DNA of 64,000 nt from Verrucomicrobiia bacterium (GTDB lineage Bacteria > Verrucomicrobiota > Verrucomicrobiia > Palsa-1439): contig DATIZX010000079.1 in the NCBI GenBank assembly GCA_035516795.1, positions 9,084 through 73,083 of the forward strand, written 5' to 3'. This document shows positions 18,001 through 21,000 of the stretch, piece by piece; the stretch's first letter is position 1, and each line of letters begins with the position of its first letter. The position numbers are program-made.

Positions 18001-21000
18001 CCGTACATCTGTGGCAATCTCGGTAGCGGAACGCCTCAAGAAATGATGGAATGGATTGAGTATATCACCTCGGACGCCGATTCCCCGATGGCTAATTTAC
18101 GCCGGCAAAACGGACGTGAGCAGCCGTGGAAATTGAAGTACTTCGGCGTCGGCAATGAGAGTTGGGGGTGTGGCGGCAACATGCGGCCGGAGTTTTATGC
18201 CGACAATTACCGGCGTTACAACACGTTCGTGAAGAATTATCCGGGAAATCGCATCCTGCGGTTTGCTTGCGGTCCCAGTGACGGTGACGTCAACTGGACG
18301 GAAGTGTTGATGTCGATGGCGGGCCACCAGATGAACGGGCTTTCGCTGCATTACTACACCATTTCTTCCGGCGATTGGGGCCACAAGGGACCGGCGACTG
18401 GATTTACCGAGGAACAATGGTTCGGCACGTTGCGGCAGACGTTGCGGATGGAGGAACTCATTACCCGGCACGCGGCGATCATGGACAAATACGATCCCCA
18501 AAAGCGCGTGGGCTTGATCGTCGACGAATGGGGCGATTGGTACAATATCGAGACGGGCACCAATCCGGGTTTTCTCTGCCAACAGAACACGCTGCGCGAC
18601 GCGTTGGTCGCCGCGATCAATTTGAACATCTTCCAGCGACATTGTGATCGGGTCGCCATGGCCAACATCGCCCAAATGGTCAATGTCCTTCAAGCCATGA
18701 TTCTGACCGACAAGGAGAAGCTGATCGTGACGCCGACCTATCACGTTTTCGAAATGTACCAGGTTCACCAAGACGCCACATATCTGCCGATCGAACTCAC
18801 AGGCCCCGATTACGCGTTGGGAACCAACAGCATGCCCGCGCTGCATGCCTCGGCATCGCGTGACGAGTTGGGCCGCATCCATGTGTCCCTGGTGAATCTC
18901 GATCCCCACCGGGACCAGCAGGTCGTCGCGCGGTTGGCCGGTGCAACGGCGAACAGGGTCACGGGCCGTGTGTTGACCGCGACGGATATGGACGCGCACA
19001 ATACGTTTCAGAATCCCGACGCAGTCAGACCGATGGCTTTCTCCGGATTCTCCTTCAAAGACCACAATCTCTCGCTGGCACTGCCGGCCAAGTCCGTCGT
19101 CGTCCTCGAAATCGAATGATCCCGGCATAAGAAACCATAAGTTTGGAAGGTTCTGATTCGACAAAATCTGCGGCGCTCTAGCCACACTGCCTGCAGCCGC
19201 GTCCACGCGGTAAATCTGACCTTCTCGTGGACGGAGGCAGATCCGAAGGGATCTGAATCGAAGCAGCGATGAATCCTTCAAGCCGTACAGGTTCTTCACC
19301 GCTTTGATTTTTTCAAAGCACTGTTCCATGCAGACGGGCGGCCGTTCTGGCGAGAGCTTCAGGATCGCAAACGCTTCGTCACGGCCATTGAGCGATAGCG
19401 CGTGATGCCCGTAGCCGTATCCCATGAAATACGCGACAAAATTGCCCACCGTGACGCAGGCGGTTAGATGTTCGTGGGGCTTGCCCGCAGATGGATCGTG
19501 GTGGTGACGCACCGCAGTCGCCAAATGCTCGGGCAGTTTCCATTTTTCGAGAAGGTGTCCGCCGACTTCGGCATGATGACAGCCCAGCAGCTTCGATTCG
19601 ACTTCCACCAGCGACGAACCGCCATTGGTTTCCGCCGTGAACTTCTCTTATACACTTTCCATGGCAGCCGCGAGGATGATCTTGCCGACGTCGTGCAGCA
19701 GACCGGCGGTAAATGCGACGTTCTCGTCGTCGCCAAGGTCTTAGGCGATCGACTGGGCGGAGACGGCCGTGGCCACCGAATGCGTCCACAATTCGGTTCC
19801 TTCGACACCATGCCCTTTTTGATTGCTGGAAAGGGTGGCTGCGCTCGCGACAGCGACCACGATATTATAAACTTCGCGCGATCCAAGACGGGTAACCGCT
19901 TGAAGGAGATTGTCGGTGGCGGTGCCGCGACTGTAATAGGCGCTGTTGCACACTCGCAGGACATTCGCTGTGAGTGGCGTGTCATAAGAGATCAGGTCAA
20001 CAATCTTCGTATAGTCGCTGTTCGGGTTGCTGAAGGAGGGCATTAGTTGCGGCAAAATATGCGGTGCGGGCACCAGGTGATGCGCTTGATTGATATAGTC
20101 ATCAACAGCCAACATGAGATTCTTCCCTTTTGATCCTTACCAGTTTATCGGCAGGAATTGAAAAAACTGAATTGTTTCTTGATCGGCAAGACCACTCACT
20201 CGTGAATTACGGAGAGATTTCCTGACAACCAGCGCGCTGGGTCAGGCGTTGCGGTCACGCTCAAAAATGCTGTAGAGCGTCGGCAAGACCACCAATGTCA
20301 ACAGCGTGGAGGAAACCAGGCCGCCGATCACAACCGTGGCCAAGGGACGCTGAACTTCCGCGCCTGTTCCCGTGGCGATCGCCATGGGCACAAAACCCAA
20401 GCTGGCCACGAGCGCGGTCATCAGCACCGGCCGCAACCGAGTCAGGGCGCCTTCGGTGACCGCGTCGGCGGTGGATTTCCCTTCCTCGCGTAGATGGTTG
20501 ATGTAGCTGACCATCACCACGCCGTTCAACACGGCCACGCCGCTCAGCGCAATGAAACCGATTCCTGCCGAGATGCTGAAGGGCAATCCGCGCAGCCACA
20601 GCGCAAACACACCGCCCGTTACCGCAAGCGGCACGCCGGTAAAGACCAAGAGCGCTTGACGCACGCTCTGGAACGCGCCGAATAACAACATGAAAATCAG
20701 GAGCAAAGCCATGGGCACGACCACTGCCAAACGATTTCGCGCCGCAAGATACGTTTCAAACTGGCCCCCATAGCTGATTGAATAACCGGGGGGCAATTTG
20801 AGTCGGGTCTGGATCCGTAATTGTACGTCCTGCACAAAACTGGCAAGATCACGACCGCGGACCATGCTTTCGACCACGACGTAACGCCGGCCCATCCGCC
20901 GCAAGAGCGTCGGCGGCATCTCCTTGAAGACCATGTCGGCGACGTCCTGCAACCGCAGCCCTGTCGCTTGGCTTGACACCGGCAGGTTCCGCAGCACGTT

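What the first reader, a model, noticed from the sequence alone, without database searches (positions are those of the whole stretch)
19270..20115. HDOD signalling gene with two in-frame TAA codons inside otherwise perfectly conserved motifs
A single frame reads through ...VTRLGSREVYNIVVAVASAATLSS..AQSIA, then TAA, then DLGDDENVAFTAGLLHDVGKIILAAAMESV, then TAA, then ...KLLGCHHAEVGGHLLEKWKLPEHLATAVRHHHDP. There are no frameshifts, and conservation is strong on both sides of each stop. That points to very recent nonsense inactivation (TAA is otherwise used as a normal stop here, e.g. the GH gene). The alternative is programmed read-through. The original terminator also appears lost, as the frame runs into the convergent GH51 gene.
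Basis: seen in the sequence. Interest (0 to 1): 0.5.

Follow-up and report, generated by a model that had tools for sequence, protein, structure and literature searches.

The report
Recently broken HDOD signalling gene (pseudogene)
A small signalling gene in an uncultured soil or water bacterium (Verrucomicrobiae) carries two premature stop codons and has lost its normal stop, all by single-base changes seen in three independent assemblies; it is an ordinary, recently dead gene, not a sequencing error or a recoding signal.

Summary
On the minus strand, one frame from ATG 20115 matches the whole Pfam HDOD domain (E 2.5e-51). It has TAA at codon 125 (19743-19741) and at codon 156 (19650-19648). 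Codon 282 (19272-19270), where every orthologue stops, reads TCA, so the frame stays open to 18097 through the antisense of the GH51 gene.

Six close orthologue genes, all 281 codons, show the ancestral states: AAA/AAG (Lys), TAC/TAT (Tyr) and TGA. That makes three independent single-base transversions and no indels.

The lesions are not errors. Three separate megahit assemblies from three samples carry the identical broken gene, while differing by 1-6 SNPs in the neighbouring GH51 gene. In the public NCBI record, the proteins on either side have consecutive accessions and no HDOD protein lies between them.

Recoding is unlikely:
- TAA ends 11-13 other genes in the window.
- The stops are not conserved in relatives.
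- No structure follows them.
- The window holds no tRNA.
- A read-through product would carry about 390 residues of antisense junk.

Apart from the three lesions the gene looks nearly intact, with only a mild excess of lineage-specific replacements. The inactivation is therefore recent. Verdict: an ordinary young pseudogene of low interest.

The parts
19273..20115 (-). Body of the stand-alone HDOD gene (codons 1-281), now a pseudogene
   Evidence: Matches Pfam HDOD PF08668 at E 2.5e-51 over the full profile. It is colinear with 281-aa orthologues at 57-85% identity. Solved HDOD structures 3M1T, 3HC1 and 1VQR are hit by sequence.
19741..19743 (-). Premature stop 1: TAA at codon 125; ancestral AAA/AAG (Lys); mutated base 19743 (A to T on the coding strand)
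   Evidence: Codon comparison with six orthologue coding sequences. The same TAA is present in L003 and L017.
19648..19650 (-). Premature stop 2: TAA at codon 156; ancestral TAC/TAT (Tyr); mutated base 19648
   Evidence: The same TAA is present in L003 and L017.
19270..19272 (-). Lost stop codon: TCA at codon 282, where all orthologues have TGA; mutated base 19271 (G to C)
   Evidence: All full-length orthologues close to this gene are 281 aa.
18097..19269 (-). Meaningless open extension of the frame (about 390 codons). It crosses the 150-nt spacer and then runs in register along the antisense of the GH51 gene.
   Evidence: One search lists the 503-aa ORF 18097-19608. Antisense stops in this register need sense TTA/CTA/TCA codons, which make up only 1.4% of codons here. 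Stop-free antisense runs of 447, 399, 338 and 316 codons occur in other genes of the window.
19160..19186 (-). Terminator-like hairpin plus T-run downstream of the former stop; possibly the gene's transcription terminator, still present
   Evidence: Consensus scan: TGTGGCTAGAGCGCCGCA followed by GATTTTGTCG. This is a pattern match only.
20242..23334 (-). Upstream neighbour: CusA/CzcA-type RND efflux pump, intact. It is the last gene of an OEP-CzcB-CzcA operon and ends 126 nt before the HDOD start.
   Evidence: Pfam families. The NCBI name and accession HUJ10371.1 come.
17569..19119 (+). Convergent downstream neighbour: GH51 alpha-L-arabinofuranosidase, intact
   Evidence: Pfam ASD1_dom and Alpha-L-AF_C. 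NCBI accession HUJ10370.1.

Best explanation
This is a young pseudogene of a stand-alone HDOD (HD-related output domain) signalling protein, in an uncultured Verrucomicrobiae bacterium.

Three independent single-base transversions hit the gene: Lys125 AAA to TAA, Tyr156 TAY to TAA, and the stop TGA to TCA. At most, translation yields a 124-residue N-terminal fragment. That fragment holds only one (His112) of the six conserved His/Asp positions (H112, H141, D142, H181, H205, H206). The signalling function is therefore lost.

The broken allele is fixed, or at least dominant, in the population sampled in three metagenomes. The rest of the gene has barely begun to decay, so the loss is recent.

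Shown here: the lesions, their ancestral states, their reproducibility, and normal use of TAA as a stop in the window. Inferred: lack of function, the recency, and the absence of any suppression.
For: - Full-length HDOD match, and gap-free colinearity with 281-aa orthologues.
- Ancestral codons AAA/AAG, TAC/TAT and TGA in six orthologue genes.
- The identical three lesions occur in three megahit assemblies from samples ERZ27256514, ERZ27256612 and ERZ27256617. These differ from each other by 6 and 1 SNPs in the adjacent GH51 gene, so they are independent observations of slightly different strains.
- In the public NCBI third-party-annotated genome, GH51, CzcA and CzcB are HUJ10370.1, HUJ10371.1 and HUJ10372.1. 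No protein was deposited for the HDOD locus between them.
- No intact or 155-aa allele exists in the 15-billion-protein collection.
- All three stop codons are in normal use in the window (TGA 20, TAG 14, TAA 13 of 47 ORFs), and genes are tightly packed after TAA stops.
- No tRNA and no Rfam family is found in the window.
- RNA downstream of each TAA folds no better than shuffled sequence (z -0.13 and +0.62).
- Signs of young age:
  - there are no indels;
  - only one unusual residue (L28F) sits at ultra-conserved columns, within the range of intact orthologues;
  - pairwise dN/dS to orthologues is 0.04-0.07;
  - window-specific amino-acid changes are modestly in excess, 14-19 against 6-12 in sister lineages.
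Against: - Three stop-affecting hits is somewhat more than expected for so little other decay. Only 94 of 2538 possible single-base changes affect a stop. Given an excess of about 10-15 missense changes, the chance of two or more further stop-affecting hits is about 0.07-0.2. This is not significant, but it leaves room for selection.
- Synonymous sites are saturated against the nearest available orthologue (dS above 1). The age cannot be measured directly, and no near-identical intact allele was found to date the events.
- Expression was not tested.
- The rest of the genome was not available, so a suppressor tRNA elsewhere cannot be formally excluded.
Confidence: 0.86

Rival explanations
1. 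Selection-driven silencing. The stop codon was lost first (TGA to TCA). That produced an HDOD protein with about 390 extra residues, translated along the antisense of the convergent GH51 gene. Upstream nonsense mutations were then favoured because they shut this harmful product off. The end state is still a pseudogene, but the nonsense hits would be compensatory rather than neutral.
For: There are slightly more stop-affecting changes than the small amount of other decay predicts. The stop loss really does open the frame for about 390 codons into GH51. Genes with HDOD domains are repeated targets of adaptive mutation in experimental evolution (sadB in Pseudomonas protegens, PMC8262913).
Against: The statistical excess is weak (P about 0.07-0.2). 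One nonsense mutation would be enough, yet there are two. The order of the three events is unknown, because all three assemblies carry all three lesions.
Confidence: 0.1
2. Programmed read-through or suppression. The TAA codons are decoded at some frequency, so a full-length functional HDOD protein is still made.
For: The gene is otherwise well preserved and has no frameshift. Both stops fall at positions that tolerate several residues in orthologues.
Against: - TAA terminates 11-13 other genes in the window.
- The stops are absent from all orthologues examined.
- From established knowledge, TAA followed by G is an efficient terminator context in bacteria.
- No stimulatory structure follows either stop.
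- There is no tRNA in the window.
- A read-through protein would lack its stop and gain about 390 junk residues.
Confidence: 0.02
3. Sequencing or assembly artefact. The true gene is intact.
For: None was found. The source is a short-read metagenome assembly.
Against: Three independent assemblies from three samples agree at all three positions, while differing at other nearby positions. The two TAA codons are only 93 nt apart, so they lie within a single 141-mer of the assembler. This last point is inferred from the k141 contig names.
Confidence: 0.01
4. The 124-residue N-terminal fragment is retained as a new, shorter functional protein.
For: The first 124 codons keep a start codon and upstream region. 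Pfam still recognises HDOD in the fragment.
Against: The fragment lacks five of the six conserved His/Asp positions and more than half of the helical domain (metal ligands described for 3HC1 in PMC12075610). No similar short form exists in any other lineage. Window-specific replacements also occur in the N-terminal part (5-7 against 1-6).
Confidence: 0.02

Closest known systems
Stand-alone HDOD-domain proteins (Pfam PF08668), about 281 aa, of Verrucomicrobiae; solved relatives 3M1T, 3HC1 (Geobacter sulfurreducens) and 1VQR (Campylobacter jejuni Cj0248)
   Same: Same domain over its full length and the same 281-codon layout. The conserved positions H112, H141-D142, H181, H205 and H206 are all kept. 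In 3HC1 the pocket binds two iron ions through five His and one Asp (PMC12075610).
   Different: This copy has two premature TAA codons and no stop at codon 282. The genomic setting also differs: the closest orthologues lie beside flagellar genes (flgL, flgK, flgN, flgI, flgH), whereas this copy lies between a CzcCBA efflux operon and a GH51 gene.
Ordinary bacterial pseudogenes made by nonsense mutation
   Same: In-frame stops relative to intact orthologues. The locus is left without a protein in the public annotation. The lesions are fixed in the population.
   Different: This one has three stop-related point changes and no indel. Deletions and frameshifts are usually at least as common in bacterial pseudogenes (general knowledge). 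The difference is within chance.
SadB of Pseudomonas (YbaK-like plus HDOD adaptor protein controlling motility and biofilm)
   Same: Shares the HDOD domain and a link to motility regulation. HDOD genes are mutated recurrently under selection (PMC8262913; PMC12075610).
   Different: SadB has an extra N-terminal domain and a degenerate, occluded pocket with only one His. The gene here is single-domain with the full set of conserved His/Asp positions. It is only a distant relative and not an orthologue.

Membership tests
HDOD domain family (PF08668) | Match to the family profile above the curated threshold, over most of the profile | tested here: met
   174.4 bits against a cut-off of 22.9, covering profile positions 3-196 of 196, with the stops masked.
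HDOD domain family (PF08668) | Conserved His/Asp positions of the HD-type pocket | tested here: met
   H112, H141, D142, H181, H205 and H206 are invariant in the 14-sequence alignment and are present in the window. The residue-by-residue match to the 3HC1 ligands was not mapped.
HDOD domain family (PF08668) | An uninterrupted reading frame encoding the domain, that is, a functional member | tested here: not met
   TAA at codons 125 and 156, and the stop at codon 282 is lost.
Pseudogene by nonsense mutation | In-frame stops where intact orthologues have sense codons | tested here: met
   AAA/AAG and TAC/TAT/GGT in six orthologues, against TAA and TAA here.
Pseudogene by nonsense mutation | Lesions are real and not data errors | tested here: met
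   Identical in three assemblies from three samples.
Pseudogene by nonsense mutation | Relaxed selective constraint on the lineage | tested here: inconclusive
   The relative-rate test gives 14-19 against 6-12 replacements, chi-square 1.6-5.3. There is only one odd residue at ultra-conserved columns. Synonymous sites are saturated.
Pseudogene by nonsense mutation | No full-length protein is made | not testable with these tools
   This needs proteomics or ribosome profiling.
Programmed stop-codon read-through or stop-codon reassignment | The same in-frame stop is conserved in related species | tested here: not met
   There is no stop at either position in six orthologue genes. All listed relatives are full-length proteins.
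Programmed stop-codon read-through or stop-codon reassignment | The codon is not used as a terminator elsewhere in the genome, or a cognate suppressor tRNA exists | tested here: not met
   TAA ends 11-13 ORFs in the window, several of them followed within 3-12 nt by the next gene. There is no tRNA in the window. The rest of the genome was not available.
Programmed stop-codon read-through or stop-codon reassignment | A stimulatory sequence or structure downstream of the stop | tested here: not met
   Fold z-scores of -0.13 and +0.62 against shuffled sequence. Both stops are followed by G.

The most novel reading that the evidence does not exclude
The three stop-related hits are not a neutral accident. 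Loss of the TGA stop came first and produced a harmful protein extended by about 390 residues, read along the antisense of the convergent GH51 gene. The two upstream TAA codons were then selected to silence it. This would be a natural example of compensatory nonsense mutation after stop-codon loss.
Probability: 0.1. Interest if true: 0.3.

Novelty: new member of a known kind. Interest (0 to 1): 0.1.

Why it matters
It matters little beyond correct annotation. The locus should be marked as a pseudogene. Gene callers now produce either a 124-aa "HDOD" fragment or a spurious 192-aa antisense ORF from it.

It is a clean example of a gene caught very early in decay, and of one signalling input lost in an environmental Verrucomicrobiae lineage. 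The intact orthologues sit beside flagellar genes, which hints that the lost function concerned motility control. That link is an inference from gene neighbourhood only.

Tried and rejected
1. Sequencing error. Rejected, because three independent assemblies agree.
2. TAA reassignment. Rejected, because TAA is a normal stop in the window.
3. Recoding signals. No structure beyond chance follows either TAA, and there is no Rfam hit or tRNA in the window.
4. Significance of the long open frame into GH51. It is an in-register antisense shadow frame, and comparable stop-free runs occur in other genes.
5. Search for an intact or intermediate allele. Exact look-ups of six guessed alleles found nothing: 155-aa forms with K, Q, E or Y at codon 125, the restored 281-aa form, and the 503-aa downstream ORF. 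A homologue search with the 124-aa fragment found only the fragment itself.
6. A puzzling "second large contig" carrying the same CzcA and GH51. It turned out to be the NCBI copy of the same genome.
7. A closer CzcA relative on a 12-kb JGI contig (P0126). It could not be fetched.
8. Metagenome and genome scans for closer relatives. These gave only three loci and one locus, none closer than 81-92% protein identity.
9. Whether the intact 80%-identical homologue P0004, found in two of the same samples, belongs to the same genome. Composition cannot tell: tetranucleotide correlation with the window is 0.94, against 0.95 for an unrelated sample's contig.
10. Segment-wise dN/dS before, between and after the stops. 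No clear difference appeared beyond the generally longer branch.

Full report
**What is in the sequence**

On the minus strand an ORF starts at ATG 20115. Its frame reads without any shift through a complete HDOD domain. It is broken by TAA at codon 125 (19743-19741) and TAA at codon 156 (19650-19648). With the two stops masked, the product matches Pfam HDOD (PF08668) over positions 3-196 of the 196-position profile, at E 2.5e-51 and 174 bits. By sequence it also hits the solved HDOD proteins 3M1T, 3HC1, 3MEM, 3I7A and 1VQR.

A search of 5.8 billion proteins returned 1520 relatives. The closest are 85% identical, and nearly all of the close ones are exactly 281 residues long; several are named as Verrucomicrobiae HDOD proteins. 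The alignment has no gaps against the nearest five and ends at ...YGLKD/T. In the window the codon after ...GLKD is TCA, and the frame stays open to 18097.

**Ancestral states**

I fetched the DNA of six orthologues (L001, L008, L009/L010/L011, L012, L013). Their codons at the three sites are as follows:

| Codon | Orthologues | Window |
|---|---|---|
| 125 | AAA (five) or AAG (one) | TAA |
| 156 | TAC/TAT (five) or GGT (one) | TAA |
| 282 | TGA in all | TCA |

The lesions are therefore three separate single-base transversions:
- A to T at 19743.
- C/T to A at 19648.
- G to C at 19271.

The two affected residues are also not invariant. Column 125 is K/R/E and column 156 is Y/G/V/S/K/A, although the flanks are strongly conserved.

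**Are the lesions real?**

The window is 100% identical to ENA assembly ERZ27256514, contig k141_2016492, 109 kb. Two further megahit contigs from other samples cover the locus:
- ERZ27256612 k141_5312119 (L003, 3.6 kb) differs by six SNPs, all in the GH51 gene.
- ERZ27256617 k141_1911887 (L017, 4.6 kb) differs by one SNP, at 18341.

Both carry exactly the same HDOD sequence, with both TAA codons and the TCA. The lesions thus recur in independent data from slightly different strains, which rules out a sequencing or assembly error.

The same genome is public at NCBI as a third-party-annotated "Verrucomicrobiae bacterium". GH51, CzcA and CzcB are HUJ10370.1, HUJ10371.1 and HUJ10372.1, so no protein was deposited for the HDOD locus between GH51 and CzcA. 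I infer that the pipeline treated the locus as a pseudogene or left it unannotated.

**Is TAA decoded here?**

The evidence says no.
- Of 47 non-overlapping ORFs in the window, 20 end in TGA, 14 in TAG and 13 in TAA. Among the 37 ORFs taken as genes, 11 end in TAA. Several are followed within a few bases by the next gene.
- All other genes in the window are long and uninterrupted.
- There is no tRNA gene and no Rfam family in the window.
- The RNA downstream of each TAA folds no better than shuffled sequence, with z -0.13 and +0.62.
- Both stops are followed by G. From general knowledge, that is an efficient termination context.
- None of the orthologues has a stop at either position. Conservation of the stop is the hallmark of programmed recoding.
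- Any ribosome that read through both stops would meet no stop at codon 282. It would add about 390 residues of antisense GH51 sequence.

**The long open extension**

The frame past codon 281 is in register with the codons of the convergent GH51 gene. Stops in that frame arise only from sense TTA, CTA or TCA codons, which make up 1.4% of codons in this window. GH51 has none between 18100 and 19119. Stop-free antisense runs of 447, 399, 338 and 316 codons occur in other genes here. The extension is a compositional by-product, not a feature. A terminator-like hairpin with a T-run remains at 19186-19160 on the minus strand.

**How old is the inactivation?**

- Pairwise dN/dS to the orthologues is 0.04-0.07 and dS is saturated. 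For nearly all of its history the gene was under strong purifying selection.
- In a 56-sequence alignment, the window sequence has one deviation (L28F) at columns where at most two sequences deviate. The range among intact orthologues is 0-5.
- A relative-rate count with outgroups gives 14-19 window-specific replacements against 6-12 in the three sister sequences, chi-square 1.6-5.3. Some of the window's changes are non-conservative (L122S, L259P, Y262C). That is a mild excess of about 7-11 changes.
- There are no indels.
- Only 94 of 2538 possible single-base changes would create or destroy a stop. Three such hits are therefore slightly more than the small amount of other decay predicts. The chance of two or more further stop hits is about 0.07-0.2, given 10-15 excess missense changes. 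I treat this as compatible with chance. It does leave some room for the scenario in which the stop was lost first and upstream nonsense mutations were then favoured.
- All three assemblies carry all three lesions, so the order of events is unknown.

**What was lost**

HDOD is a helical HD-related domain. In the Geobacter structure 3HC1, its pocket binds two iron ions through five histidines and one aspartate (PMC12075610). The orthologue alignment has exactly five invariant His and one invariant Asp in the domain core (H112, H141, D142, H181, H205, H206), and all are present in the window. This was probably a metal-binding HDOD protein until recently.

The only product now possible without suppression is the 124-residue N-terminal fragment, which carries H112 alone.

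The two closest orthologues lie next to flagellar genes: flgL, flgK, flgN, flgI, flgH and flgA in L001, and a flagellin-family gene in L008. HDOD proteins such as SadB affect motility and biofilm formation (PMC8262913). A role in motility control is therefore plausible but untested.

In the window the gene sits between an OEP-CzcB-CzcA efflux operon and GH51, and no flagellar gene is present in the 64 kb. An intact 80%-identical homologue (P0004) occurs on short contigs in two of the same samples. Composition cannot tell whether it is a paralogue in the same genome or belongs to a relative.

**Verdict**

This is an ordinary, recently formed pseudogene of a known family, fixed in a natural population. 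It is not a recoding event or an artefact. Interest is low.

Noticed in passing
window 1898-8510 (minus strand): Part of an extracellular contractile injection system (eCIS) cluster. It includes a Pvc16_N protein with a CarboxypepD_reg domain (1898-2803). A 910-aa protein (2881-5613) has an eCIS_core domain and a C-terminal SsdA-like single-strand DNA deaminase toxin domain. There is also an AAA ATPase with a winged-helix domain (5576-7948) and a NusG-like protein (7992-8510).
   Followed up: no
window 10386-11649, especially 10441-10800 (minus strand): A gene-poor stretch holds a 119-aa ORF that matches only the first 59 of 287 positions of the SpvB (Tc/Rhs toxin) profile. The sequence reads LPKGGGGLQSIGEKFAINSVTCTGSMTVPIATRSGRSGFGP... 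and then breaks off. It is probably the remnant of a large toxin gene, and so a second decayed gene in the window.
   Followed up: partly
window 11650-17493 (plus strand): One 1947-aa ORF fuses GH2, GH35 and melibiase (alpha-galactosidase) domains into a single very large glycoside hydrolase. It lies directly upstream of the GH51 gene.
   Followed up: no
window 18547-18721, compared with L003: The strain in sample ERZ27256612 differs from the window by six SNPs. Five of them are packed into 35 nt (18687-18721) of the GH51 gene, while the flanking 3.5 kb is identical. This looks like a short recombination tract or a local strain variant.
   Followed up: no
window 19468-20046 (plus strand); L017 3802-4380: In one public assembly the gene caller annotated the 192-aa antisense ORF inside the broken HDOD gene as a protein. 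It is an in-register shadow frame with no family match, so it is a likely false gene call caused by the pseudogene.
   Followed up: partly
L009 and L010 (samples ERZ27256617 and ERZ27256514): An intact 281-aa HDOD homologue (P0004, 80% identical) co-occurs in two of the three samples that hold the broken gene. It lies next to MerC, DUF3299 and ABC-transporter genes. It could be a paralogue giving redundancy or could belong to a related organism; this is unresolved.
   Followed up: partly
L001 1963-7911; L008 161-1096: The two closest intact orthologues lie beside flagellar genes: flgL-like flagellin, flgK, flgN, the rod-binding protein gene, flgI, flgH and flgA. This suggests a motility-linked role for this HDOD subfamily.
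   Followed up: no
window 34213-40002 (plus strand): A 1929-aa protein with many PKD and Ig-like (ASH/HYDIN-type) repeats and a glucodextranase-B-like domain; probably a large surface or secreted protein.
   Followed up: no
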